Virus record (IMG/VR): IMGVR_UViG_3300029068_000023 | Origin: a virus | Lineage: Duplodnaviria; Heunggongvirae; Uroviricota; Caudoviricetes | DNA length: 14,786 bases | Reading direction: 5' to 3' (one strand) | Shown: one piece after another, positions 1 to 14,755 of the stretch | Layout: every line of letters starts with the position of its first letter | Numbering within the stretch: position 1 is the first letter of the stretch | Made by a program: the position numbers and the translations under genes | Notes under the pieces: model-generated | Databases searched by the model: none | Told to the model about the DNA's origin: nothing | The model's input: only the letters and a program-made list of their open reading frames with translations

Positions 1-92
1 CAGCTGGCAAGCGAATGTAAAGACTGACTAAGCATGTAGTACCGAGGATGTAGGAATTTCGGACGCGGGTTCAACTCCCGCCAGCTCCACCA
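1..92 (+). ncRNA. ssrA: 3' portion of the tmRNA gene (ssrA), ending at the CCA terminus; 5' part lies outside the window
   Basis: Positions 1-92 match the sequence I recall for the 3' end of enterobacterial tmRNA, ending ggacgcgggttcaactcccgccagctccacca (61-92). A P4-type integrase follows directly, as at the E. coli ssrA locus. Confidence 0.88.
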
Positions 93-276: not shown

Positions 277-1500
277 GTGGCACGGACAACACGTCCTCTG
301 ACCAACACTGAAATTCTGCGGACTAAAGCTTTAGAGAAGGATCTAACACTGCATGATGGCGAGGGGCTTTTCCTGATAGTGAAAACAAACGGGAAAAAAC
401 TCTGGCGTTTCCGTTATCAACGTCCAACAACAAAACAGCGAACAATGATGGGGCTTGGTGCCTTCCCTGCCTTATCGCTTGCTGATGCCCGAAGGCTAAG
501 GGCTGAATACCTTTCCTTATTAGCCAATGGAATTGACCCGCAAATACAAGCTGAAGTTGCAGAGGAGCAGCAGAAAATCGTGCTTAACAGTATTTTTTCA
601 GCAGTCGCCTCTAACTGGTTCTTGCTCAAAAGCAAAAGTGTTACTCCTGATTACGCAAAGGATATTTGGCGCTCATTGGAAAAAGACGTACTCCCTGCTA
701 TTGGCGAGATCCCCGTTCAGCAAATCAAAGCCCGAACACTAGTTGAAGCACTTGAACCAATCAAAGCTCGCGGAGCACTGGAAACAGTTCGTCGCCTAGT
801 ACAACGTATTAACGAAATAATGATTTATGCGATTAACACTGGTTTGATTGATACTAATCCAGCATCAGGCATTGGTATGGCTTTTGAAAAACCCAAAAAG
901 CAAAACATGCCAACACTGCGGCCTGAAGAGTTACCTAAGCTGATGCGTTCTTTAGCTATGTCAAATCTTTCTATTCCAACTCGCTGTCTAATTGAATGGC
1001 AACTCCTGACACTTGTACGCCCATCTGAAGCTGCCGGTGCTCGATGGGTAGAGATCGATCTTGAAACAAAACTATGGACAATTCCCGCAGAACGGATGAA
1101 AGCCAAGCGTGAGCACATTGTTCCTTTATCACCACAAGCGTTAAATATACTCGATGTTATGAAGCCAATTAGTGGCCACCGAGAATTCATTTTTCCCAGC
1201 AGATGTGACCCGAAGAAGTCAATGAACAGTCAAACGGCGAATGCTGCTTTGAAACGGATAGGTTATGGAGGTAAACTGGTTGCCCATGGAATGCGCTCAA
1301 TAGCCAGCACGGCAATGAATGAATTTGGATTCAACCCAGATGTAATTGAAGCTGCACTTGCTCATATTGATAAAAATGAAGTTCGACGCGCGTACAACCG
1401 CTCAGTTTATCTTACTCAGCGTAAAGAATTGATGGAATGGTGGGGGGAACAATGTGTTTCGCAATTCTCATCTATTAGAAATAAGTGGCCCGTCTCCTAA
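277..1500 (+). CDS. int: P4-family tyrosine integrase (site-specific recombinase), GTG start
   Basis: 407-aa ORF next to the tmRNA 3' end. N-terminal arm-binding-like region (DGEGLFLIV...KLWRFRY) and C-terminal catalytic region with HGMRS...AHID...RRAYNRSVYL (conserved R, H-x-x-R, Y). GTG at 277 preceded by ggag (264-267). Confidence 0.92.
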   Translation: MARTTRPLTNTEILRTKALEKDLTLHDGEGLFLIVKTNGKKLWRFRYQRPTTKQRTMMGLGAFPALSLADARRLRAEYLSLLANGIDPQIQAEVAEEQQKIVLNSIFSAVASNWFLLKSKSVTPDYAKDIWRSLEKDVLPAIGEIPVQQIKARTLVEALEPIKARGALETVRRLVQRINEIMIYAINTGLIDTNPASGIGMAFEKPKKQNMPTLRPEELPKLMRSLAMSNLSIPTRCLIEWQLLTLVRPSEAAGARWVEIDLETKLWTIPAERMKAKREHIVPLSPQALNILDVMKPISGHREFIFPSRCDPKKSMNSQTANAALKRIGYGGKLVAHGMRSIASTAMNEFGFNPDVIEAALAHIDKNEVRRAYNRSVYLTQRKELMEWWGEQCVSQFSSIRNKWPVS

Positions 1501-1543
1501 TTTGGTAGTTTTGTTCATTTGAGATACATAGCAAGGATTTGAA

Positions 1544-2644
1544 ATGTACATTCAAGATATTCCTAAAGATTCAAAATTTTGGGTTGTTCGATCTGGTGAT
1601 GGCGGTATGTTTTATGACCACTTTGTGCACAACTCCATAGCAGCTATTGGGCACATTGACGCTATGGAATTTAGCGATCAGACCCTCAGTAATAAAGATG
1701 AAGTGATTAAACTCGTTTATAATTACAAACAAACTTTGCTTGAAAAAAAGGAAACACTTGCATCTGCATCTAATAAAGCAGGCCAAGTTCTACGTTTCAT
1801 TAATGAAATGTCAGTCGGTGATATAATTATAACTCTAGATGCAAGGAGAATAGTGGTCGGCAGGATCATATCTGGTCCTTATAAAGATATGGAAAATGTA
1901 ACATTACTCAATGTTGATGGAACAACAGATGAAAAATTGCTTAAATTTACCCTTAGACGTAAAGTTGAATGGGGAAAAACGCAGTTTCGTGACAAACTTC
2001 CATTAGCCATAAATAATAGTTTCAGGGCTAATCAAACTGTTTTCTCAGCAAACGAGCACTGGAAAGAGCTTAATCACTGGTTATCTGTTGCATTTATATC
2101 AGATAATGAAGCTTATATTTCCTCACGGATTGAGCAAACAGAAGGGATTAACAATCTTGACATTGCTCAATACTCCATAATAATAAATAAAATTGAAGCT
2201 ATTGCTCAAACAATCGCTAACAATGACAACTATCATTTCGATGATGATAAATTATTATCTCTCTTTGAAGATACATATAAAGAACTAAGAAAAAGTAGAA
2301 CATTTACGGTAACGACACAACAGGTATTTCTTTCACCAGGAGATCTTTGGGCAAAAATATCTGGAAGCCGTAAAAAAAGCCTGTTAGTTATCTGCACATT
2401 TCTTATAATGTTCAATATTGAGCCATCTTTCGCAGATGAAAATGACAAAATATTTTTCGACAACAACTATGAAGCAATATCTTTATTAATTAATAAAGTA
2501 AAACATGATGAAAACTTTGAGGAAGTAAAAAATGGATTAGCATTAAAAGTTCCTGCACAAAAACTAAACACAAAAAACACCTCTACAAACCCCAATAAAA
2601 AACGCTATGATGATGTAGAACCAGACGACTTTGAAGGCATTTAA
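1544..2644 (+). CDS. Hypothetical protein (366 aa), cargo gene A of the int-cos hotspot; function unknown, candidate anti-phage protein
   Basis: Long ORF with RBS aagga (1533-1537) 6 nt before ATG 1544. DNA is very AT-rich relative to the flanking P4 backbone. No Walker A, HEPN, PLD, RT or TIR/SIR2 motifs found by eye; acidic C-terminal tail (YDDVEPDDFEGI). Confidence 0.75.
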   Translation: MYIQDIPKDSKFWVVRSGDGGMFYDHFVHNSIAAIGHIDAMEFSDQTLSNKDEVIKLVYNYKQTLLEKKETLASASNKAGQVLRFINEMSVGDIIITLDARRIVVGRIISGPYKDMENVTLLNVDGTTDEKLLKFTLRRKVEWGKTQFRDKLPLAINNSFRANQTVFSANEHWKELNHWLSVAFISDNEAYISSRIEQTEGINNLDIAQYSIIINKIEAIAQTIANNDNYHFDDDKLLSLFEDTYKELRKSRTFTVTTQQVFLSPGDLWAKISGSRKKSLLVICTFLIMFNIEPSFADENDKIFFDNNYEAISLLINKVKHDENFEEVKNGLALKVPAQKLNTKNTSTNPNKKRYDDVEPDDFEGI

Positions 2645-3302
2645 GAGGATGATGAAGTTCATAAAAAAATGGTGGGATAACCATGATAAATCTAATAATT
2701 TTTTATCAGGTATCCATTACATCGTCATTTCGCTAGCTATCATAATTGGTGGCGCGTGGTCGTTGTATACCTTTGACGCATTACAAATGGCCAAAAATGC
2801 GGAAATCCAACTAAAAAAGGCTAACGAAGATTTAAAACAAATAAAAGAGCAAATTAAGGGCACTGACTCTAGCAGTATTGCTATTAATGTTATCCCGTTA
2901 AAAACACAGCTAGGAATGATTATTAATGTAACCATAAAAAATAACGGCAAACGACCATTATCCTTTGACACATCCAAAGGAGCTTTAACTGTGTACAAAG
3001 TAAGCGCAAATGGCGATAAAGTTGAACAATCTCAATCTTTTACACCAAATCTCTATACATCTTTGAGAGATAAAAAACACTATCCAGAATCAAAAAGCAA
3101 ATCATTATCAAAGACACATGTTTTAATAGGAGCAGAAAAAACCCTTAGCTATATTGTTGGATTAAATAAGCCAGGCGTTTATTATATTACATTTAGGTCA
3201 ACACCAGATGATAATTTTGACACAGAAGAATTAAAAAACAAAAAACCTGTAGAATGGTTCGCTTCTTCATATGTTGAAATTACCCCACAAAAATATAAAT
3301 AA
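2631..3302 (+). CDS. Hypothetical single-pass membrane protein (about 217-223 aa), cargo gene B; start ambiguous (TTG 2631, ATG 2649 or 2652)
   Basis: Overlaps or abuts the stop of gene A (2642-2644), suggesting translational coupling. AAGAGG at 2643-2648 precedes ATG 2649/2652. Basic N-terminus (KRMMKFIKKWW), one hydrophobic helix (FLSGIHYIVISLAIIIGGAWSLYTF), then a coiled-coil-like stretch and a beta-rich C-terminal domain. Confidence 0.7.
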   Translation: MKAFKRMMKFIKKWWDNHDKSNNFLSGIHYIVISLAIIIGGAWSLYTFDALQMAKNAEIQLKKANEDLKQIKEQIKGTDSSSIAINVIPLKTQLGMIINVTIKNNGKRPLSFDTSKGALTVYKVSANGDKVEQSQSFTPNLYTSLRDKKHYPESKSKSLSKTHVLIGAEKTLSYIVGLNKPGVYYITFRSTPDDNFDTEELKNKKPVEWFASSYVEITPQKYK

Positions 3303-3609
3303 AAAAAATAAGAAGCACACAAATGTTTTTATAGCCTAAAAAACCGCCACAATATTTAACAGCCACATTAAAACACATGCATTATGTTAATGCATTAAAT
3401 GAAATTAATCCTCCATCCACTCCGTAAAAATAACACTATCATAAACACATCAATAGAGTCATCCAAAAACACAAAAATAACTTTAACTCAATAATATTAA
3501 ACATTCCCCTTTCTAATCACTACTCTAACTTATTGTCGTAGATGAAGCGAGCAAACTCAATTGCGCTCTCAGACTTTGAAAAAATTGAACACATCAACAT
3601 TTGCGCGCA

Positions 3610-3792: not shown

Positions 3793-4365
3793 TTACACAG
3801 ACTGATGTGATGCCAGTTGCGCACTTTTACGCGAAAAAATCATGTTCTGCGCAGGGGTGAATTTTTCACGGCTGTCGTCCACCGAAGCCGCGTCAGGCCT
3901 GAATCCGATGGCCGTTAAAATGTCGCTATCCTGTGCGGAATAATTAATTTTTTCACCCTTTGCAAGCCAGGACAGAAGGGCTTCACGCAGGGCATCTGTG
4001 GCACGCTGTATGGCACAGTTTCGGGCAATGGCCGTCAGTTCACTGTAGCCCATCAGCTCCGGTGCCAGTGCGGCCGCCAGTACTGTGCCGTGCTGCTGCA
4101 TAAAATCATTCAGCCGGTCGCGGATGCTGATGTGCTGAACGGCTTCATGCGAACGAATATAACGACCGGCGGCCTGATTCACCTGCCATTTTCTGACTTC
4201 GATAATATTGCGTAATTCGTCCAGGCGACTGACGTTTCTGCCTTCTCCTGACAGAAGCCGCAGGTATTCCTGTTCGGCCGCTGCCAGCTCATTTTTGCGT
4301 TGCAGCCATGCTGCTTTGTTATTCTGACAGGTGTCAAAGGCCTGCTGTAAGGCTGTGCTTTCCAT
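3793..4365 (-). CDS. psu: Polarity suppression protein Psu (Rho antagonist / capsid decoration), P4-type
   Basis: 190 aa, the length of P4 Psu; sequence MESTALQQAFDTCQNNKAAWLQRKNELAAAEQEYLRLL... matches my recollection of P4 Psu; last gene of the sid-delta-psu operon next to cos. Confidence 0.9.
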   Translation of the reverse strand: MESTALQQAFDTCQNNKAAWLQRKNELAAAEQEYLRLLSGEGRNVSRLDELRNIIEVRKWQVNQAAGRYIRSHEAVQHISIRDRLNDFMQQHGTVLAAALAPELMGYSELTAIARNCAIQRATDALREALLSWLAKGEKINYSAQDSDILTAIGFRPDAASVDDSREKFTPAQNMIFSRKSAQLASHQSV

Positions 4366-4438: not shown

Positions 4439-4939
4439 TCATTCCAGACGCAGCGAATATGATTGTGTTTTTAACCGTACTGGCGGCAGTTCCTGTTTTT
4501 CATGCAGGCGTTCTGCCAGTTCGTCCGGCGTGACCGGGCGGACAATGAAGCGGTTGATGGTCTGAAGCGTTTTAAACACCAGACCACAGCCCGGATCCGT
4601 GCACACATAAAAACGTTCAGTGACTTCCTGAGACAGACGCCGCGATGTTCTTGACAGTGCAAGGCCTTTACATCTCCGACAACAATATCCGGTAACAAGC
4701 ATTCTTTTCGGGCGTTTCATACTGCCGGAGGCTGACGTCAGTGAATCGCGGTATCTCTGTTTGCCTGAAATGTATTCCATTCCTGAATCTTTACTGTCAG
4801 AGAAAAAGCTTTCACTCGCTTCAAATGTCGCAGAGCAATAAATATTCCGGCACTGTGCAATCATTATCTTGGTGCCATCGTCCATGAAATGTGCGCGACG
4901 GGTGTGAGCAACATGTCCACACGACGGGCAGTAAATCAT
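4439..4939 (-). CDS. delta: Delta, Ogr-family zinc-finger late transcription activator (tandem Ogr-like domains)
   Basis: 166 aa; two Cys-rich Ogr-like halves (MIYCPSCGH...CRNIYC and CCRRC...YVCTDPGCG); start overlaps the sid stop (ATGA at 4936-4939). Confidence 0.9.
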   Translation of the reverse strand: MIYCPSCGHVAHTRRAHFMDDGTKIMIAQCRNIYCSATFEASESFFSDSKDSGMEYISGKQRYRDSLTSASGSMKRPKRMLVTGYCCRRCKGLALSRTSRRLSQEVTERFYVCTDPGCGLVFKTLQTINRFIVRPVTPDELAERLHEKQELPPVRLKTQSYSLRLE

Positions 4940-5670
4940 GACAGCAGTCCTCTGGCCTTAAGCTCTGCTCCCTGCTGGTCTATTTTGTCCTGCCACACCT
5001 TGCGCTGTGCCGGTGTGCCTGCCACCTCATAATCCATGTGCGGGAGTGTTGCCGCTGACAGTCCGGTCAGCCGGAGAACCGGCTCGCCGGTGAGGCTGAT
5101 TTGCATCTGTTTAATTTTCTGTTCCAGCGATGATTTCACCTGCTGCATGACAGCCTTTTCCGGTGCGACGTAGCCCTGATGGCCGGTGGTGTTGGCGAGC
5201 GGATTTTCCTGTACCAGGATGCTCAGATGCATTGCCCGGACAAGCGCCTCACAGGTTTCATTCAGGGCGTGTTCCAGCTCATGCTCTGCATACAGACTCA
5301 GAAGGTGATGATGTGCCTTCCGGTAGGCGGTGGCCGTGCTGTCACACGCCCCTTTCAGGCGTTCACGTTCAAAATTCAGCACCACGGCCAGATTGTCATA
5401 TTCCTGTACCAGCTCCCGGCGTGCCACGCGCTCAATGTGGCGCTGTTTCAGCTCGTCGCTCAGGACACCACCGGCTGCACGAAAGGCTGTGCGCCAGTCA
5501 TCAGCGTCATTTCCGTCGGCCTGCGCCAGCGCATTTTTTTCCTGCTCTGCCCGTTCAATGGCCGTGACGGTCTCATCCATCAGGCGGGCGTTCTCAAGGT
5601 GGGCGGCTCTGGCCTTTTCCAGTTGTGCCAGTGCGGGTTGCAGATATTCAGGGATGGTGTTGTCAGACAT
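4936..5670 (-). CDS. sid: Sid, external scaffold/capsid size determination protein
   Basis: 244 aa from ATG at 5670 (MSDNTIPEYLQPALAQLEKARAAHLENARLMD...), with strong SD GAGGAG 7 nt upstream on the minus strand. The ORF-track start at 5688 is a GTG without an SD and is probably an over-extension. Confidence 0.88.
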   Translation of the reverse strand: MSDNTIPEYLQPALAQLEKARAAHLENARLMDETVTAIERAEQEKNALAQADGNDADDWRTAFRAAGGVLSDELKQRHIERVARRELVQEYDNLAVVLNFERERLKGACDSTATAYRKAHHHLLSLYAEHELEHALNETCEALVRAMHLSILVQENPLANTTGHQGYVAPEKAVMQQVKSSLEQKIKQMQISLTGEPVLRLTGLSAATLPHMDYEVAGTPAQRKVWQDKIDQQGAELKARGLLS

Positions 5671-5695
5671 TTTCCGGCTCCTCGTCACTTCAGGT

Positions 5696-6489: not shown

Positions 6490-7085
6490 TGATACCCGCT
6501 CTGCAAAAACTCCCTTTTTCTGGCTTGCCTTTTTCCGGCATTTGCGGATATAGTTTTTCCGCTGCCGCAAAATCGGCAGCCGGGCGTGAGAACCCGAGCA
6601 ATTCACAGGCGACATATGACGCGCCACGCGTCTTTTTTTGTGTCGCAATCAATGCCACAGAGCGCCAGATTATGGTGTGGTGTGTGGTCAGTCGTGCAGA
6701 TGGCATTCCGTGCATCCTGCCCGCGTCCGCTCATTATGCCGCAGAGTCAATGGTAGCTCAGGCGGGGCAGCCTCCGGGCTGGCCGGTATCCTGTGAAGCC
6801 GGTATTCTCACCCCCGTCTGGGCTATCGCCATCGAGCGTGAGAACTCCGGCGATAGCGTTATTTGCTATTCACAGGAGGCTGCCATCATGGCTACAACCC
6901 TTACCCCCTCACACCCTGAATTTGTCTTTGTGTTTGCGGCTGTCCGTCGCGCAGACCGTCATCCCCGTATCTGTATGCTTCGCACCGTCGCCGGTGATGA
7001 ACGCAGTGCCCGCCGTTCCCTTGTCCGTGACTATGTGCTCTCCCTTGCTGCCCGTCTGCCGGTGGTGGAGGTGTCCCGTGCGTAA
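6486..7085 (+). CDS. 199-aa ORF coupled to vis by an ATGA overlap and spanning the immunity-like region; coding status uncertain
   Basis: ATG 6486 overlaps the vis stop; the ORF runs 600 bp to TAA 7083-7085. The N-terminal two-thirds is Cys-rich and overlaps structured RNA-like elements; the last 65 codons have their own strong RBS (aggagg 6874-6879, ATG 6888). Either the full ORF or only 6888-7085 may be the real gene. Confidence 0.4.
6584..6876 (+). ncRNA. Immunity-like structured region (candidate CI-RNA / seqA-seqB-seqC type transcription-termination control)
   Basis: Two copies of gcgtgagaac (6584-6593, 6836-6845), each followed by attcacagg (6601-6609, 6868-6876); a partially complementary ttctcac at 6805-6811; a 9-bp stem hairpin at 6822-6857 enclosing the second copy; an intrinsic terminator at 6618-6639. 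Assignment to individual P4 elements is not resolved. Confidence 0.35.
6618..6639 (+). terminator. Intrinsic terminator within the immunity-like region
   Basis: gacgcg (6618-6623) / cgcgtc (6627-6632) stem with 3-nt loop, followed by T7 (6633-6639). Confidence 0.55.
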
Positions 7086-8283: not shown

Positions 8284-10617
8284 ATGAAAATGAACGTAAC
8301 CGCCACCGTCAGCCATGCGCTCGGCCACTGGCCGCGTATTCTCCCGGCGCTGGGGATTCAGGTGCTGAAAAACCGTCATCAGCCCTGTCCGGTCTGTGGC
8401 GGGAGTGACCGCTTCCGTTTTGATGACAGGGAGGGGCGCGGCACCTGGTACTGCAATCAGTGTGGTGCCGGTGACGGCCTGAAACTGGTTGAAAAGGTGT
8501 TTGGTGTTTCCCCGTCCGACGCGGCCGCAAAGGTGGCTGCCGTGACCGGCAGCCTGCCCCCGGCTGACCCGGCAGTGACGGCTGCCGCCGGTGCTGAAAC
8601 AGACGCCGCCCGGAAGAACGCCGCCGCACTGGCACAAACCCTGATGGCGAAAACCCGTCCCGGAACCGGTAACGCCTACCTGACCCGCAAGGGCTTTCCC
8701 GGCCGGGAATGCCGGATGCTGACCGGCACACACAGAGCCGGTGGCGTGAGCTGGCGCGCCGGTGACCTTGTGGTGCCACTGTATGACGACAGCGGCGAAC
8801 TGGTTAACCTTCAGTTAATCAGTGCTGACGGCCGTAAGCGCACCCTGAAAGGCGGACAGGTCAGGGGCACCTGTCACACCCTTGAAGGACAGAATCAGGC
8901 CGGAAAACGTCTGTGGATAGCGGAGGGATACGCGACCGCACTTACCGTGCATCACCTGACCGGTGAAACGGTGATGGTGGCGCTTTCTTCCGTGAACCTC
9001 CTTTCTCTGGCCAGCCTTGCCCGGCAGAAGCACCCCGCCTGTCAGATTGTCCTTGCCGCTGACCGTGACCTCAGCGGTGACGGCCAGAAAAAAGCCGCCG
9101 CAGCCGCAGATGCGTGTGAAGGTGTTGTTGCCCTGCCGCCGGTCTTCGGTGACTGGAATGATGCCTTCACGCAGTACGGCGGGGAAGCCACCCGTAAGGC
9201 CATTTATGATGCCATCCGGCCACCGGCTGAAAGCCCGTTCGACACCATGAGCGAAGCGGAGTTTTCCGCCATGAGTACGAGCGAAAAGGCCATGCGTATC
9301 TATGAGCATTACGGCGAGGCGCTCGCGGTCGATGCCAACGGCCAGCTTCTGTCCCGTTATGAAAATGGTGTCTGGAAGGTGCTGCCACCACAGGACTTTG
9401 CCCGGGATGTGGCCGGGCTGTTTCAGCGGCTACGCGCGCCGTTCTCCTCCGGGAAGGTGGCCTCCGTGGTGGACACCCTGAAGCTGATTATTCCGCAGCA
9501 GGAAGCCCCCTCCCGCCGCCTGATTGGCTTTCGTAACGGCGTGCTCGACACGCAGAACGGCACGTTCCACCCGCACAGTCCGTCACACTGGATGCGCACC
9601 CTGTGCGATGTGGATTTCACCCCGCCGGTGGACGGTGAAACGCTGGAAACCCACGCTCCCGCGTTCTGGCGCTGGCTTGACCGTGCTGCCGGTGGTCGTG
9701 CGGAAAAACGCGACGTGATTCTGGCCGCACTGTTTATGGTGCTGGCAAACCGCTACGACTGGCAGCTCTTTCTGGAGGTGACCGGTCCCGGCGGCAGCGG
9801 CAAAAGTATCATGGCCGAAATAGCCACCCTGCTGGCCGGGGAGGATAACGCCACGTCGGCCACCATTGAGACGCTGGAATCCCCGCGTGAACGTGCCGCG
9901 TTAACTGGCTTCTCACTGATACGCCTGCCGGACCAGGAAAAATGGAGCGGCGACGGAGCCGGACTCAAGGCCATCACCGGCGGCGATGCGGTGTCCGTTG
10001 ACCCGAAATACCGGGATGCGTACTCCACGCACATCCCGGCGGTGATTCTGGCCGTGAACAATAACCCGATGCGCTTCACCGACCGCAGCGGCGGCGTGTC
10101 ACGCCGGCGGGTGATTATTCACTTCCCGGAACAGATAGCCCCGCAGGAGCGCGACCCGCAGCTTAAGGACAAAATCACCCGCGAGCTGGCGGTCATCGTG
10201 CGTCACCTGATGCAGAAGTTCAGCGACCCGATGCTCGCCCGGTCACTGCTTCAGTCCCAGCAGAACTCAGACGAGGCACTGAACATCAAACGGGATGCCG
10301 ACCCGACGTTTGATTTTATCGGCTATCTGGAAACCCTGCCGCAGACCAGCGGCATGTATATGGGGAACGCCAGTATCATCCCGCGTAATTACCGTAAATA
10401 CCTCTATCACGCCTATCTGGCCTACATGGAGGCAAACGGCTACCGGAATGTACTCAGTCTGAAAATGTTCGGGCTGGGGCTGCCGGTGATGCTGAAGGAA
10501 TACGGACTGAATTACGAGAAGCGCCATACCAAACAGGGGATACAGACCAACCTGACGCTGAAAGAGGAAAGCTACGGCGACTGGCTGCCAAAATGTGATG
10601 ACCCTGCAACAGCCTGA
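8284..10617 (+). CDS. alpha: Alpha, bifunctional primase-helicase replication protein (zinc-binding primase + superfamily-3 helicase + C-terminal origin-binding domain)
   Basis: 777 aa (P4 alpha length). N-terminal zinc motif CPVCGGSDRFRFDD...WYCNQCG, TOPRIM-like primase region, Walker A GPGGSGKS (near 9786-9809); SD aaggag upstream of ATG 8284. Confidence 0.95.
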   Translation: MKMNVTATVSHALGHWPRILPALGIQVLKNRHQPCPVCGGSDRFRFDDREGRGTWYCNQCGAGDGLKLVEKVFGVSPSDAAAKVAAVTGSLPPADPAVTAAAGAETDAARKNAAALAQTLMAKTRPGTGNAYLTRKGFPGRECRMLTGTHRAGGVSWRAGDLVVPLYDDSGELVNLQLISADGRKRTLKGGQVRGTCHTLEGQNQAGKRLWIAEGYATALTVHHLTGETVMVALSSVNLLSLASLARQKHPACQIVLAADRDLSGDGQKKAAAAADACEGVVALPPVFGDWNDAFTQYGGEATRKAIYDAIRPPAESPFDTMSEAEFSAMSTSEKAMRIYEHYGEALAVDANGQLLSRYENGVWKVLPPQDFARDVAGLFQRLRAPFSSGKVASVVDTLKLIIPQQEAPSRRLIGFRNGVLDTQNGTFHPHSPSHWMRTLCDVDFTPPVDGETLETHAPAFWRWLDRAAGGRAEKRDVILAALFMVLANRYDWQLFLEVTGPGGSGKSIMAEIATLLAGEDNATSATIETLESPRERAALTGFSLIRLPDQEKWSGDGAGLKAITGGDAVSVDPKYRDAYSTHIPAVILAVNNNPMRFTDRSGGVSRRRVIIHFPEQIAPQERDPQLKDKITRELAVIVRHLMQKFSDPMLARSLLQSQQNSDEALNIKRDADPTFDFIGYLETLPQTSGMYMGNASIIPRNYRKYLYHAYLAYMEANGYRNVLSLKMFGLGLPVMLKEYGLNYEKRHTKQGIQTNLTLKEESYGDWLPKCDDPATA

Positions 10618-10649: not shown

Positions 10650-10667
10650 ATCCCGACATCCCCCGAA

Positions 10668-10762
10668 GGTGAACAATCCACTGTTCACCCTTCACCGTAT
10701 ATTCACCCGTTATCACACTGAAATTAAAAGAGAAAAACGAAAGGTGAACAGTGTGAACAATC
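10668..10762. repeat. crr-like direct repeat 1 (cis replication region) containing TGTTCACC/GGTGAACA iterons
   Basis: ggtgaaca 10668-10675, tgttcacc 10682-10689, ggtgaaca 10743-10750, gtgtgaaca 10751-10759; about 85% identical by eye to the repeat at 10850-10944, with 182-bp periodicity; followed by an A9/T6 tract. Confidence 0.7.
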
Positions 10763-10849
10763 AAATCAAAAAAAAACTTTTTTCTCCCTGTGCGATTTTC
10801 AGTGCAGGGAATTAATCACCGGTATGAGTCACACCGGCAGAATGCCGGA

Positions 10850-10944
10850 GGTGAAGAATCGAATGTTCACCCTTCACCCATTATTCACCACCTATCATAC
10901 TGAAATAAAATGAGAAAAAAGAAAGGTGAACAGTGTGAACAGTT
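10850..10944. repeat. crr-like direct repeat 2
   Basis: ggtgaaga 10850-10857, tgttcacc 10864-10871, ggtgaaca 10925-10932, gtgtgaaca about 10933-10941; followed by an A8/T7 tract (about 10952-10966). Confidence 0.7.
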
Positions 10945-11028
10945 CTTCCGAAAAAAAATTTTTTTCCTGTACGATATAGCATCAATCCAAGTAAAAATGC
11001 GCTTTCATTTCACATTAACTTACAGCCA

Positions 11029-11281: not shown

Positions 11282-14200
11282 TCAGAACGACCAGTTCACA
11301 CCAGCTACCGCGTTCCACGGGGATTCCACACCGGCACTATGGCTATACCCCACCCCAAGATGCCCGCTTAACGTACTGCTGAATGAGGCTTTAATACCTG
11401 CCTGGTATATTCCACGTCTGCCCGACAAATAATTGACGAAATTACCGTCACTATTCACTTTCACCCGGTTATCATCGACAAATTCTTTGCGCACAGCCGC
11501 CTTCAGCCACGGCTCAACTTCCATACCGTTCCCCAGACGCATGTTGTAACTCAGCGTTGCGCCCAGTTCACGATATATACTGCGGGTATCGACTGATTTC
11601 GATTTCATGCCATTGGATAAATGATATTCGGGGTTATCAGCGGTGAACCCCGTTAACGATGCATACGGCGTCAGGTTCCAGTTACCATCGGTAAATCGCA
11701 TCCCGGTTTCAATGTGACCGCCCAGCCCGTTGCTGTGGTAACTGCCATTGGCGGCTCCACCGCTGCTCATTTTACCTGCTACGTTACTTTTAAAACGGTT
11801 CAGCTTCACGACACCGTCCAGATAGAAACCACTTTCATGTTCCCAACTGGCATAGCCGCCCAGAGAATAACTGCCCACACTGCCATGTCCTCCGCGATCA
11901 AAACCGATATGTGAATGGGAATAGCCCATAAAAGCGCCTAGCGTGGTAATTCCTTCAGGAATATCATTACGGCTGTCGATCCCCACTGTCATTCCGGTCA
12001 GCGTCTGCTCAAACCCGGCACCCGCATCGGTGGTGACATTATTACGGGTGTTATACGTCGCCCCCCAGACATTATTGTTGTGTGGACTCGCTTTCATTAT
12101 GTTCAACCGCTCGCGAATACTGTTTAGCTCAGCATCAAATACCAACGGTAATGTTGCTGCCATATTGAGTACGGCTGGCGTAGAAGGCGTAATGCGTTTC
12201 TCCGGAACGGGTGTCGGCGTTGGATCGGGAGTAGGGTCTGGTTTTGGATTTGGGTCTGGCTTTGGATCGGGTTTTGGGTCTGGCTTTGGATTTGGGATGG
12301 GGTCCGGGTTGGGTTTGACATCATTGGTCAGGTTCCAGTTGCTGTTGCCGTCACTTTTCAGGACATACTCATAGGTCCCAAGATCAACGAAACCGCCGGT
12401 ATTGCCCAGCGTAAACGAAGCATCCCCTCCCCCTGTTTTCACCAGCGTCATCGCGTCGTCAGACTGTGGGCTGACGCCGGTATCCTGAACAAAGATTTTA
12501 AAATTACCAGTGGCGTTGTTGTTGACGACCAGTTGATCGCCCCGGGAGCCTGCAACGTTGGTATGCAGGTAGAAATTACCGCTACCGGAAAGTTCATTGG
12601 TTGTCAGCGTATTGTAGATACCGTTAGTTGTGGCAGGCGCTGCTGTTTGTGCTGACAAATAAACATCACCGTCGTTGAGTAGCAAACTGTTTACTCTATA
12701 TTCGCAGTTGCTGGTACCTGCACAGGAATTATTGCTGTTAAGCCAGACACTGCCCCGGCTGGCAGCCGTCAGGTCGGCAAGCGTGGTATCGACGCCATTT
12801 CCCAGAGTCAATGTCGCGCTATCGGTAATCCGGACCGCCCCTTCGAGTTTAACTGGCGTAACATTATCCCGTGGCGTCATTAACGACAGGCTTCCTGTCG
12901 CGCCACTGACCGATGCATCCGCCAGCGTACCTGCGTAGACGATTGCCGTACCGCCAGCGACCTGGAGATCTTCTGCCCGGGCCAGAGCCTGAAACTCATC
13001 TTTTGACCGCCCAAGGGTATATTGCCCGCCAGAGTTAACCTTTGTGGCGGAGTCCTGACCCAGGTTTTGCATTGCCCCACCCTTGCCAACCGTGGAGTCG
13101 CGAGCTTCGGTACCTGCTAATACCAATAAATTACCGCCATTTTCCAGCAACATATTGGTCGCTAAATTGCCGGAAATGGAAAAAGTACCGTACTGGTGAG
13201 TACCGCTGATTTCAATACCGTTAGCCGTGCTCGTCTGGAGAGCGGCACCGCTGTTCTGGACGATATCTGTCGCTTTGCCATTATCGTTGACTGTCAGCGT
13301 ACCGCCTTCATTGATCTTTGTTTTTATTGCCTCTCCGTTAGCTGAAACTGTTTGTATTCCGCCGTCGTTAATTGTTGTCTCATTCGCCACACCCTCGACA
13401 ATTTGTTCACCGCCGGTGAGCGTCGTGCCTGTCGCAGTGGCTTTTGTTTTGACGATCTCCCGTCCGCCCATATTGACCTGTGTTTTGTCAGAAGAGGTGT
13501 CTGACTCCACGGTTAACACGCCGCCATTTGCCAGCAGGATATTGTTCGCCGCACCCTGCTCGATGCTGAACGCGACGCCATCCGCGCGTGTTCCTGTGAC
13601 CCGCGTCGCCCTGGTGGTTGCAACCAAAGCGCCCTGGCTACTCTGCTGTATCCCCGTTGCGCTGCCTTTCTCCCGCACATCGAGTGTGCCGCCGTCATTA
13701 AGCACCGAGTTTTCAGCCAGACCGCCCTCATTAACTACCTGTGAACCCCCATTAATAATGGAACCTTCCGCTGTCCCGTTTGCCATAATTTGTTGTAGGC
13801 CAGAGACGATATCGGTATTGATTGCCTTACCATAATTCTGAACGGTTTGCGTGCCACCATTGATGTGTGTTTTCTCTGTTGACCCACCATCAACAATTTG
13901 TTCACCACTTTCGATATTTGCTTCAGTGGCTAAACCATATACCGTTTGCTTGCCACCTTTGATATTTGCTTTATCAGAAGTGGCACTGGCATATATTGTT
14001 TGGGTGCCAGCACTATTGAGTACAGTGCCAACATCTTTTCCATAAACATCCATTTTGCCGTTGGCATTAATAATCGTGTCAACTGCGCGGGAACCAGTGA
14101 CGACTGTTAATGAGCCAGCGTTTTCCAGCACTACATTTTTAGCTTCTGAATTCCTGATGTAGAAAGCATCACCATAACTGTTGGTTCCTTCGATAAGTGT

Positions 14201-14755
14201 TCCGGAGGTCGTGGAAGCAATTAATGCGCCGCCGGATTGTTGCTCAACATGCTTAGCCTCACCACCGTCCTGAACCTCCAGAACGCCGCCATTATTAAGT
14301 CTGGTGCTATCTGTTTTAGCCTCCTTCTGGACAATCAGCTTACCGCCAGTATCAATGGTAGTATTTTTCGCCGAGGTTTTAGCCACTACCGTCAGTTCGC
14401 CGGTATTTTCCAGCACAACATAGTTAGCCTCCCCTCCGGTAATAGTGAAGTGAGAGAGCTTGTTGTATCCTTCGATATCAGTCCCTGCACCCGTGTTGGC
14501 AACTAAAGCACTGCCCGTCTCCTGGTTAACCCCATGTGCAATACCGCCGGTATAGACAATCAGCGAGCCTCCGGCGCTAATATTGCTGCCAATTGCCGTA
14601 CCATCTTTCTCAACAACCTGCCGGCTCCCGGAGGATATAATTGTTGTGTCAGCTTTCCCGCCGCTTTTGATATTTTGCGTTCCGCTGTTGATATTGGTGC
14701 GGCTTTGTTGAATAAATAAGATTTCGTGCGAACGACCCTGTAGCTGGCTGGATTT
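11282..14755 (-). CDS. Autotransporter (type Va) adhesin-like protein: beta-helical passenger, proline-rich linker, C-terminal beta-barrel; N-terminus not resolved in the window
   Basis: C-terminus ends ...AGVNWSF (aromatic terminal residue typical of outer-membrane beta-barrels); linker PNPDPIPNPKPDPKPDPKPDPNPKPDPTPDPTP; passenger has repeated Gly-rich beta-helix motifs. By my translation the frame is open from 14755 to 11282 (the ORF track starts it at GTG 14416), with an in-frame TGA at 14756-14758. Position next to the ssrA island resembles ypjA of E. coli K-12, not confirmed. Confidence 0.8.
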   Translation of the reverse strand, partial: KSSQLQGRSHEILFIQQSRTNINSGTQNIKSGGKADTTIISSGSRQVVEKDGTAIGSNISAGGSLIVYTGGIAHGVNQETGSALVANTGAGTDIEGYNKLSHFTITGGEANYVVLENTGELTVVAKTSAKNTTIDTGGKLIVQKEAKTDSTRLNNGGVLEVQDGGEAKHVEQQSGGALIASTTSGTLIEGTNSYGDAFYIRNSEAKNVVLENAGSLTVVTGSRAVDTIINANGKMDVYGKDVGTVLNSAGTQTIYASATSDKANIKGGKQTVYGLATEANIESGEQIVDGGSTEKTHINGGTQTVQNYGKAINTDIVSGLQQIMANGTAEGSIINGGSQVVNEGGLAENSVLNDGGTLDVREKGSATGIQQSSQGALVATTRATRVTGTRADGVAFSIEQGAANNILLANGGVLTVESDTSSDKTQVNMGGREIVKTKATATGTTLTGGEQIVEGVANETTINDGGIQTVSANGEAIKTKINEGGTLTVNDNGKATDIVQNSGAALQTSTANGIEISGTHQYGTFSISGNLATNMLLENGGNLLVLAGTEARDSTVGKGGAMQNLGQDSATKVNSGGQYTLGRSKDEFQALARAEDLQVAGGTAIVYAGTLADASVSGATGSLSLMTPRDNVTPVKLEGAVRITDSATLTLGNGVDTTLADLTAASRGSVWLNSNNSCAGTSNCEYRVNSLLLNDGDVYLSAQTAAPATTNGIYNTLTTNELSGSGNFYLHTNVAGSRGDQLVVNNNATGNFKIFVQDTGVSPQSDDAMTLVKTGGGDASFTLGNTGGFVDLGTYEYVLKSDGNSNWNLTNDVKPNPDPIPNPKPDPKPDPKPDPNPKPDPTPDPTPTPVPEKRITPSTPAVLNMAATLPLVFDAELNSIRERLNIMKASPHNNNVWGATYNTRNNVTTDAGAGFEQTLTGMTVGIDSRNDIPEGITTLGAFMGYSHSHIGFDRGGHGSVGSYSLGGYASWEHESGFYLDGVVKLNRFKSNVAGKMSSGGAANGSYHSNGLGGHIETGMRFTDGNWNLTPYASLTGFTADNPEYHLSNGMKSKSVDTRSIYRELGATLSYNMRLGNGMEVEPWLKAAVRKEFVDDNRVKVNSDGNFVNYLSGRRGIYQAGIKASFSSTLSGHLGVGYSHSAGVESPWNAVAGVNWSF
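12205..12315 (-). repeat. Short tandem repeat encoding the Pro-Asp-Pro-Lys linker of the autotransporter
   Basis: Tandem units of ggatttgggtct / ggctttggatcg type on the plus strand, giving the PNPKPDPKPDP repeats on the minus strand. Confidence 0.6.

What the first reader, a model, noticed from the sequence alone, without database searches (positions are those of the whole stretch)
1544..3302. Unrecognised AT-rich two-gene cargo in the int-cos hotspot of a P4-like satellite: candidate novel anti-phage system
Seen: two co-directional ORFs (366 aa and about 220 aa) sit between the integrase stop (1500) and cos (3610)/psu (3793). Their DNA is much more AT-rich than the backbone on either side (individual 60-nt lines look roughly 20-40% GC against well over 50% in the backbone, by eye), which marks a horizontally acquired insert. 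The genes overlap or abut, so they form an operon. Established: in P4 this slot holds the dispensable gop/beta/cII genes, and in P4-family satellites it is a known variable hotspot for diverse anti-phage defence systems. Inference: gene A shows no Walker A, HEPN Rx4-6H, PLD HxK, reverse-transcriptase YxDD, nucleotidyltransferase or TIR/SIR2 signature by eye, and gene B is a single-pass membrane protein, so the pair matches no defence family I recognise. It may be a new system built from a cytoplasmic sensor/effector and a membrane partner.
Basis: partly seen in the sequence, partly recalled or inferred. Interest (0 to 1): 0.88.

Follow-up and report, generated by a model that had tools for sequence, protein, structure and literature searches.

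The report
Uncharacterised two-gene satellite cargo, probably antiviral
A phage satellite integrated in E. coli carries, in its known defence-gene slot, a conserved and unstudied gene pair: a modified-base-reader-like protein that has no nuclease, and a membrane protein, which together are probably an untested anti-phage system.

Summary
Two co-directional genes sit between the integrase and cos/psu of a P4-like satellite integrated at ssrA: A at 1544-2644 (366 aa) and B at 2649-3302 (217 aa). The cargo is 33% GC against 56% for the backbone.

A belongs to DUF8426, a large family of about 1000 clusters at 50% identity. Members occur in Proteobacteria and in Firmicute prophages and satellites.

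B has one transmembrane helix, a long helix I read as a coiled-coil stalk, and an Ig-like β-sandwich that is probably periplasmic. It has no known family.

A and B stay adjacent and co-diverge down to about 28-34% identity in Salmonella, Providencia, Aeromonas, Kistimonas and Pseudomonas (there next to DRT8). Two distant A relatives pair with unrelated membrane proteins.

The best reading is an uncharacterised sensor plus membrane-effector defence system. Defence itself is untested, and I found no paper on it. Novelty: a new variant of a known kind. Interest is moderate.

The parts
277..1500 (+). P4-type integrase, the left border of the hotspot (context)
   Evidence: ORF; annotated as an integrase in the 99.9% identical E. 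coli locus
1501..3567 (.). AT-rich cargo insert, GC 0.328
   Evidence: Composition. Homology to thousands of other E. coli P4-like elements resumes only at about window 3568-3580
1544..2644 (+). Gene A, a 366-aa DUF8426 protein
1571..2128 (+). Gene A N-domain (aa ~10-195): EVE/YTH-like (PUA-type) reader fold with a helical insert (aa 45-88). Family-invariant residues are W13, H37, D93, G106 and W143
2141..2548 (+). Gene A C-domain (aa 200-335): family-specific alpha/beta domain with no catalytic motif and no structural relative found
   Evidence: AF2 pLDDT about 80-90. No Pfam or PDB hits. 103 of 150 family representatives match it
2309..2359 (+). Beta-hairpin 'TVTTQQVFLSPGDLWAKI' holding the only invariant C-domain residues, S264 and G266
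   Evidence: The same QSPG motif occurs in Firmicute homologues
2378..2434 (+). Conserved hydrophobic segment 'SLLVICTFLIMFNIEPSFA' (aa 279-297). It is either a core helix or a membrane-interacting element, and is not a convincing transmembrane helix
   Evidence: KD19 1.73, found at the same position across the family. A simple Hessa-type sum is about +4 kcal/mol
2552..2641 (+). Disordered tail ending in the short motif 'VEPDDFEGI'
   Evidence: pLDDT <50 for aa 337-366. The motif recurs in distant homologues
2649..3302 (+). Gene B, 217 aa (alternative TTG start at 2631), with no known family
2700..2774 (+). Gene B transmembrane helix (aa 18-42)
   Evidence: KD19 1.99; AF2 helix 19-71
2775..2861 (+). 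Gene B helical stalk (aa 43-71), read as a coiled coil from the spacing of invariant Q54, L62, I65 and I69
   Evidence: No coiled-coil predictor was run
2874..3281 (+). Gene B Ig-like beta-sandwich (aa 76-211), predicted to be periplasmic
3303..3567 (.). AT-rich non-coding spacer belonging to the cargo
   Evidence: GC 0.306. Partly conserved in the Salmonella element. No terminator or RNA family found
3793..4365 (-). psu, the right border of the hotspot (context)

Best explanation
The pair is a two-gene anti-phage cargo of the P4 int-psu hotspot.

Gene A is a cytoplasmic sensor. Its N-domain is an EVE/YTH-like reader of modified bases or nucleotides, and it is homologous to the recognition domain of Mrr-type (PADLOC PDC-S02) restriction endonucleases. 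In A the nuclease half has been replaced by a non-catalytic domain with an invariant SPG hairpin and a hydrophobic helix.

Gene B is an inner-membrane protein with an N-terminal anchor, a helical stalk and a periplasmic Ig-like domain.

Working model, step by step:
(i) Shown: domain homology, gene order, co-inheritance of A and B, and defence-type neighbourhoods.
(ii) Inferred: during infection the A reader domain binds a modified nucleic-acid cue. This could be modified phage DNA, as in Type IV restriction. It could instead be a modified mononucleotide released by genome degradation, as in Metis.
(iii) Inferred: A has no enzyme domain, so the output is at the membrane. A's C-domain engages B, and possibly the bilayer through its hydrophobic helix. 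The B complex then compromises membrane integrity and stops phage production, that is, abortive infection.

I put the probability of a defence function of some kind at about 0.7. The specific sensor-to-membrane abortive mechanism is about 0.4-0.45.
For: Location:
- The order int-A-B-psu is found in E. coli and in a Salmonella P4-like satellite at a different attachment site.
- This slot is an experimentally established defence hotspot (PMC9122126).
- 6 of 8 randomly chosen unknown P4 loci protected against phages (PMC13586616).

Sensor module:
- PADLOC PDC-S02 E 2.5e-18 and REase_II E 2.8e-5.
- The same N-domain is fused to Mrr_cat in a Proteus plasmid gene that sits in a methylase/helicase/GIY-YIG island.
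- W13, D93, G106 and W143 are invariant in the 80-sequence family alignment. In the mixed set that adds Firmicute and Mrr-fused relatives, only R16, F85 and D93 are invariant, and W13, G106 and W143 are 90% or more conserved.

No enzyme in A:
- No Pfam hit in 80 family members.
- The only invariant C-domain residues are S264 and G266.

Pairing:
- A and B are adjacent (-4 to +47 nt apart) and co-diverge. A/B identities to the window are 90/92% (Salmonella), 40/45% (Aeromonas), 33/36% (Kistimonas), 34/34% (Pseudomonas), 32/41% and 28/30% (two metagenome contigs).
- Two distant A relatives are followed by unrelated membrane proteins.

Defence neighbourhoods:
- DRT8 in Pseudomonas.
- An MvaI/BcnI-type R-M system.
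- ParD-like and SocA/Panacea genes on the same contig.
- The lysogeny modules of Strep and Staph prophages and satellites.

Precedents:
- PUA-type sensing of m6dAMP, and a P4-hotspot system whose effector is a membrane protein (Metis, bioRxiv 10.1101/2025.11.05.686725).
Against: - No experiment exists, and neither gene matches a validated defence family.
- B's bulk is predicted to be periplasmic and only about 17 residues face the cytoplasm, so coupling to a cytoplasmic sensor is unexplained.
- A's hydrophobic helix is too short and too weak for a clear transmembrane segment.
- Firmicute DUF8426 genes lack any B-like neighbour, and two A relatives have no membrane partner. B may therefore not be the effector.
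- The pair is rare in E. coli: 2 of 5426 complete genomes.
Confidence: 0.45

Rival explanations
1. Non-abortive entry guard (superinfection exclusion). B sits at the inner membrane with its Ig-like domain in the periplasm, where phage tails and ejection proteins arrive. It tethers A under the entry site, and A's reader domain binds incoming (modified) DNA and blocks its translocation or use. The cell is not killed.
For: B's large domain is predicted to be periplasmic. A has a DNA-reader-type domain but no nuclease or other enzyme. Membrane proteins encoded by mobile elements often act at injection, for example YmfE/Kunado, which was proposed to act as an exclusion protein.
Against: Firmicute homologues work without any B-like partner. 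Known exclusion proteins are usually single small membrane proteins. Nothing shows that A is membrane-bound.
Confidence: 0.2
2. Addiction or toxin-antitoxin-type module, or a satellite-helper interference function, rather than dedicated defence. B or A's C-domain would be a membrane toxin held in check by the other protein, stabilising the satellite. P4's own gop/beta genes occupy the same slot.
For: The canonical P4 genes in this slot behave like a toxin-antitoxin pair (PMC9122126). The two genes are tightly coupled. TA genes lie near several homologues.
Against: A 366-aa reader-domain protein is unlike known antitoxins. The family is also found in chromosomal defence islands next to DRT8 and R-M systems. 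TA-like behaviour and abortive defence are not mutually exclusive.
Confidence: 0.12
3. Two functionally independent genes that merely travel together. A would be a stand-alone DUF8426 sensor-effector and B an unrelated envelope protein.
For: DUF8426 occurs alone in Firmicutes and in some proteobacterial contigs.
Against: The two genes are adjacent and co-diverge over six further loci, down to about 28-34% identity, with start/stop coupling of -4 to +10 nt in most. B homologues were found only next to A homologues. None was found in the phage or plasmid collections.
Confidence: 0.1

Closest known systems
PADLOC candidate PDC-S02 / Mrr-type 'restriction endonucleases' with this N-domain (e.g. 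WP_159287660.1 on Proteus plasmid pHFK418-NDM)
   Same: The N-terminal ~160-190 aa are homologous (HMM E 2.5e-18; N-domain profile E 3.4e-18 to the Proteus protein). Both occur in defence islands and mobile elements.
   Different: PDC-S02-type proteins carry a C-terminal Mrr_cat nuclease and are single genes. Gene A matches only profile positions 3-165 of about 320. It has a non-catalytic C-domain instead, and a membrane partner.
EVE/YTH (PUA-superfamily) modified-base readers, including modification-dependent restriction enzymes such as VcaM4I (EVE-HNH; PMC6765204)
   Different: There is no sequence-level match to Pfam EVE or to any PDB chain. A has a 45-aa helical insert and no nuclease domain.
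Metis (MisA/MisB; type II MisB/MisC), the PUA-Cal-HAD system
   Same: A PUA-type module senses a modified nucleotide. Type II uses a membrane effector and was first found in the P4 hotspot.
   Different: There is no calcineurin-like or HAD phosphatase, and no 3-TM MisC. In type II Metis the membrane protein itself binds the ligand. The ligand of gene A is unknown.
Other sensor plus transmembrane-effector defence systems of P4/P2 hotspots (RT-nitrilase + TM, TIR + TM, HAD + TM; PMC9122126)
   Same: The same slot, and the same two-gene logic of a soluble protein plus a membrane protein.
   Different: The proteins are unrelated. B's main domain is an Ig-like sandwich predicted to lie outside the cytoplasm, which is unusual for such effectors.

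Membership tests
P4-like satellite int-psu hotspot cargo | Located between the P4-type integrase and cos/psu of an element that carries psu, delta, sid, alpha primase and the C4/isrK immunity RNAs | tested here: met
   The same arrangement is seen in Salmonella
DUF8426 (Pfam PF28530) | Match to the family model | tested here: met
   Precomputed PF28530 on the 99%-identical P0001 and on nearly all full-length homologues; the family name is shown. The model is absent from the local Pfam copy, so the window protein itself was not scored directly
PADLOC PDC-S02 | Full-length match to the PDC-S02 profiles (reader domain plus C-terminal half) | tested here: not met
   Only profile positions 3-165 of 299-346 align, both for the window protein and for 10 diverse relatives
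Type IV / modification-dependent restriction endonuclease | A nuclease domain (Mrr_cat, HNH, PD-(D/E)xK, GIY-YIG) joined to the reader domain | tested here: not met
   No nuclease family in Pfam, NCBIfam or PADLOC for A or B, nor in 80 family members. No conserved acidic or lysine catalytic residues in the C-domain
EVE domain (PF01878) / PUA superfamily | Sequence match to the EVE model | tested here: not met
   No Pfam hit at E<=1. Profile searches of the PDB found no EVE or YTH chain
EVE domain (PF01878) / PUA superfamily | EVE/YTH-type beta-barrel fold | tested here: inconclusive
EVE domain (PF01878) / PUA superfamily | Binding of a modified base in an aromatic pocket | not testable with these tools
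   W13 and W143 are invariant or nearly so, and are candidate pocket residues. This needs binding assays or a co-fold
Metis (types I and II) | MisB HAD phosphatase together with MisA (PUA-calcineurin) or MisC (3-TM) | tested here: not met
   No HAD or metallophosphatase domain and no PADLOC hit to the hydrolase-3TM system. B has 1 TM and no relation to a 3-TM protein
Phage lysis proteins (holin / i-spanin) for gene B | Holin or spanin family match and a lysis-cassette context | tested here: not met
   No Pfam or PHROG family for B. There is no endolysin or o-spanin neighbour, and the periplasmic part is mostly beta-sandwich

The most novel reading that the evidence does not exclude
DUF8426 would be a widespread, unrecognised class of immune protein carried by prophages and satellites. 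In it, a Type IV-restriction-style modified-base reader has lost its nuclease and instead drives a membrane-directed response. In diderm bacteria it would have recruited a partner whose Ig-like domain lies in the periplasm. That would link cytoplasmic sensing of modified nucleic acid to the cell envelope, a coupling not described for any defence system.
Probability: 0.3. Interest if true: 0.75.

Novelty: new variant of a known kind. Interest (0 to 1): 0.55.

Why it matters
If active, the pair would add a defence family built from a restriction-type reader domain with no nuclease. It would also give a function to DUF8426, a family with about 1000 clusters at 50% identity. Members are found in Salmonella, E. 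coli, Klebsiella, Providencia, Aeromonas and Pseudomonas. They are also found in Streptococcus, Staphylococcus and Clostridium prophages.

It would show how sensor modules are re-wired from DNA cleavage to membrane outputs. The predicted periplasmic location of the partner's main domain raises a specific question: how is a signal passed between a cytoplasmic reader and the envelope?

On the practical side, the pair is common in Salmonella P4-like satellites and could affect the host range of therapeutic phages.

Tried and rejected
- **Family scans for B** (PADLOC, Pfam, NCBIfam, PHROGs): nothing significant. Three divergent B homologues also gave nothing in PADLOC.
- **Sequence searches of the PDB** with four profiles: nothing.
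- **Foldseek of model A against the PDB:** best E 0.3. The afdb50 library was unavailable.
- **Pfam on 80 A-family members:** no domain.
- **The search for related loci:** The narrower one found only 2 loci in each of genome contigs and viral contigs.
- **A as a transmembrane protein:** not supported. The hydrophobic run is about 13 aa, and the simple Hessa-type sum is about +4 kcal/mol.
- **Internal signal-peptide-like 'RKK-hydrophobic-SFA|D' in A:** rejected, because the small -3/-1 residue pattern is not family-wide.
- **The 264-aa 'truncated' A proteins in Salmonella, Klebsiella and Cronobacter as pseudogenes:** rejected. In the Salmonella locus examined the full 367-aa ORF is intact, and the short proteins reflect a mis-called start.
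- **Weak PDC-S20 hit of the Aeromonas homologue** (E 0.0016): not seen for the window protein and not pursued.
- **Literature:** no paper mentions DUF8426 or the RefSeq accessions. The ten papers that mention PDC-S02 were seen only as titles and abstracts.
- **attR:** no second copy of the ssrA 3' end in the window.

Full report
**Setting.** The window is a P4-like satellite integrated at ssrA. Bases 1-92 are the 3' end of tmRNA. They are followed by:
- the integrase (277-1500);
- the two genes of the finding;
- psu (3793-4365), delta (4439-4939) and sid (4936-5688) on the minus strand;
- the isrK and C4 immunity RNAs (6548-6833);
- the alpha primase (8284-10617);
- the chromosomal autotransporter gene ypjA.

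Two complete E. coli genomes carry the same locus at 99.7-99.9% identity, and both genes are annotated there as 'hypothetical protein'. In the other ~2250 E. coli genomes with a match, homology starts only at about window 3568-3580. The variable cargo is therefore about 1501-3567.

**Observation.** Both ORFs exist as described. GC is 0.328 over the cargo, 0.56 over the backbone and 0.447 for int. Gene A stops at 2642-2644. Gene B most likely starts at ATG 2649 or 2652, behind an AAGAGG Shine-Dalgarno sequence. This start is the RefSeq call and fits the N-termini of homologues. The genes therefore abut with a 4-7 nt gap. No promoter-like or terminator-like site stands out beyond chance.

**Gene A, N-terminal half.** Residues ~10-190 match five PADLOC models of the candidate system PDC-S02 (best E 2.5e-18). 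They also match a Type II REase model and an unannotated PHROG. All these matches cover only the N-terminal half of the PDC-S02 profiles, and the same is true for ten diverse relatives. tblastn and profile searches show the same N-domain fused to an Mrr_cat nuclease in proteins annotated as 'restriction endonuclease'. One example is on a Proteus plasmid, inside a methyltransferase/helicase/GIY-YIG island.

**Gene A, C-terminal half.** Residues 200-335 form a confidently modelled alpha/beta domain with no detectable relative. Across 80 diverse members only S264 and G266 are invariant. They lie in the hairpin 'TTQQxF(M/L)SPGxxW', and no catalytic-type residue is conserved. A moderately hydrophobic helix follows directly (aa 279-297) and is conserved in position across the family. 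It is too short and too weak for a clear transmembrane helix. The protein ends in a disordered linker and a short recurrent terminal motif, VEPDDFEGI.

**The A family.** An exhaustive HMMER search found 989 clusters at 50% identity with E<=1e-3. Most are 340-390 aa and match over their full length. Homologues carry the precomputed Pfam label PF28530, DUF8426. Members occur in Enterobacterales, Aeromonas, Pseudomonas and Kistimonas. They also occur in Streptococcus, Staphylococcus and Clostridium prophages, in satellites, and on a Bacillus plasmid. In the Strep and Staph elements they sit in the repressor-integrase module, and they keep the QSPG-plus-hydrophobic-stretch signature.

**Gene B.** No family was found in any library, and no homologue in the phage or plasmid collections. 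The AF2 model shows a helix spanning aa 19-71, which covers the transmembrane segment and a stalk. The invariant stalk residues Q54, L62, I65 and I69 are spaced in a way I read as a coiled coil, although no predictor was run. A beta-sandwich follows (aa 76-211, pLDDT about 90) and resembles generic Ig/FN3/arrestin/ApaG domains. Three divergent homologues have two transmembrane helices joined by a positively charged loop. By the positive-inside rule this places the sandwich outside the cytoplasm. This is an inference, and fusion reporters would settle it.

**The pair is a unit.** A B homologue directly follows the A homologue in:
- Salmonella, in a P4-like element with the same int-A-B-psu order at another attachment site;
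- Providencia;
- Aeromonas, between a cI-like repressor and an integrase remnant;
- Kistimonas, with a 4-nt overlap;
- Pseudomonas, next to DRT8;
- three metagenomic contigs, and probably a fourth where the downstream gene is cut off.

Identities to the window fall in parallel. For A/B they are 90/92, 40/45, 33/36, 34/34, 32/41 and 28/30%. Two distant A relatives are instead followed by unrelated small membrane proteins. Two others have no membrane partner, and one of those lies next to a type II R-M system. The Firmicute genes examined have no B-like neighbour. B may therefore be a diderm-specific accessory and A the core of the system.

**Mechanism.** What is shown:
- a restriction-type reader module with no nuclease;
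- a conserved non-catalytic domain;
- an obligate-looking membrane partner in Proteobacteria;
- locations typical of defence genes.

What is inferred is the working model. A senses a modified nucleic-acid cue, and the response is executed at the membrane by B, perhaps together with A's hydrophobic element, giving abortive infection. The cue could be modified phage DNA, as for its Mrr-fused relatives. It could instead be a modified nucleotide, as shown for the PUA-containing Metis system. A type II Metis operon (membrane effector MisC with MisB) was first described as a P4-hotspot system. I rate a defence function at about 0.7. This rests on the hotspot's record in PMC9122126 and on 6 of 8 random unknown P4 loci being active in PMC13586616. 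I rate the specific sensor-to-membrane abortive mechanism at about 0.4-0.45.

**Rivals.** The main alternatives are:
- a non-lethal entry guard that uses B's periplasmic domain;
- a toxin-antitoxin-like or satellite-stabilising module;
- two independent genes that travel together.

The chief weakness of every model is topological. How a cytoplasmic reader communicates with a protein that exposes only about 17 residues to the cytoplasm is not explained.

**Known or new.** No characterised system matches. The pair fails the membership tests for PDC-S02, Type IV restriction and Metis. No paper in the searchable library mentions DUF8426 or these proteins. It is best filed as a new variant of a known kind: a sensor plus membrane-partner defence cargo that re-uses a restriction-enzyme reader domain. 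Uncharacterised cargo in P4 hotspots is common, so the finding alone is not surprising. The nuclease-less reader, the envelope-facing partner and the size of the DUF8426 family make it a worthwhile experimental target.

Noticed in passing
window 1-92: The 3' end of tmRNA (ssrA), so the satellite is integrated at ssrA. No second copy of the ssrA 3' end (attR) was found in the window with up to 3 mismatches.
   Followed up: partly
window 6548-6833: Rfam matches to c4-a1b1, isrK and the C4 antisense RNA. This is the P4-type immunity region.
   Followed up: no
window 10663-10784 and 10845-10966: Two direct copies of a 122-nt sequence (82% identity, 182 nt start to start) just downstream of the alpha primase gene. 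From my recollection of P4 biology this looks like the crr replication region.
   Followed up: no
window 11282-14416 (minus strand): A long autotransporter ORF (ypjA/ehaD) flanks the satellite. It is annotated as an N-terminally incomplete or frameshifted pseudogene in the two matching E. coli genomes, one of them next to IS1.
   Followed up: no
L021 6692-7795 (Salmonella) and proteins P0025-P0028, P0035: Many database entries for the A homologue are 222-264 aa 'truncated' proteins. In the Salmonella locus the full 367-aa ORF is intact, so there the short form is a mis-called start and not a pseudogene.
   Followed up: yes
L005 3986-6386 (Pseudomonas sp. S3_B08): A DRT8 reverse transcriptase and its PD-(D/E)xK partner lie immediately upstream of the A-B homologue pair on the opposite strand, forming a small defence island.
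   Followed up: partly
L012 2556-7556: Next to a distant A homologue and its unrelated membrane partner lie a 742-aa protein with no family and a protein of more than 1398 aa with weak DEAD/Helicase_C hits. These may be another defence system.
   Followed up: no
window 2552-2641 (gene A aa 337-366): A disordered linker followed by a terminal motif 'FP..E..D[FI]..I', which recurs in homologues from Aeromonas, Kistimonas and a metagenome contig. It looks like a docking peptide for an unknown partner.
   Followed up: partly
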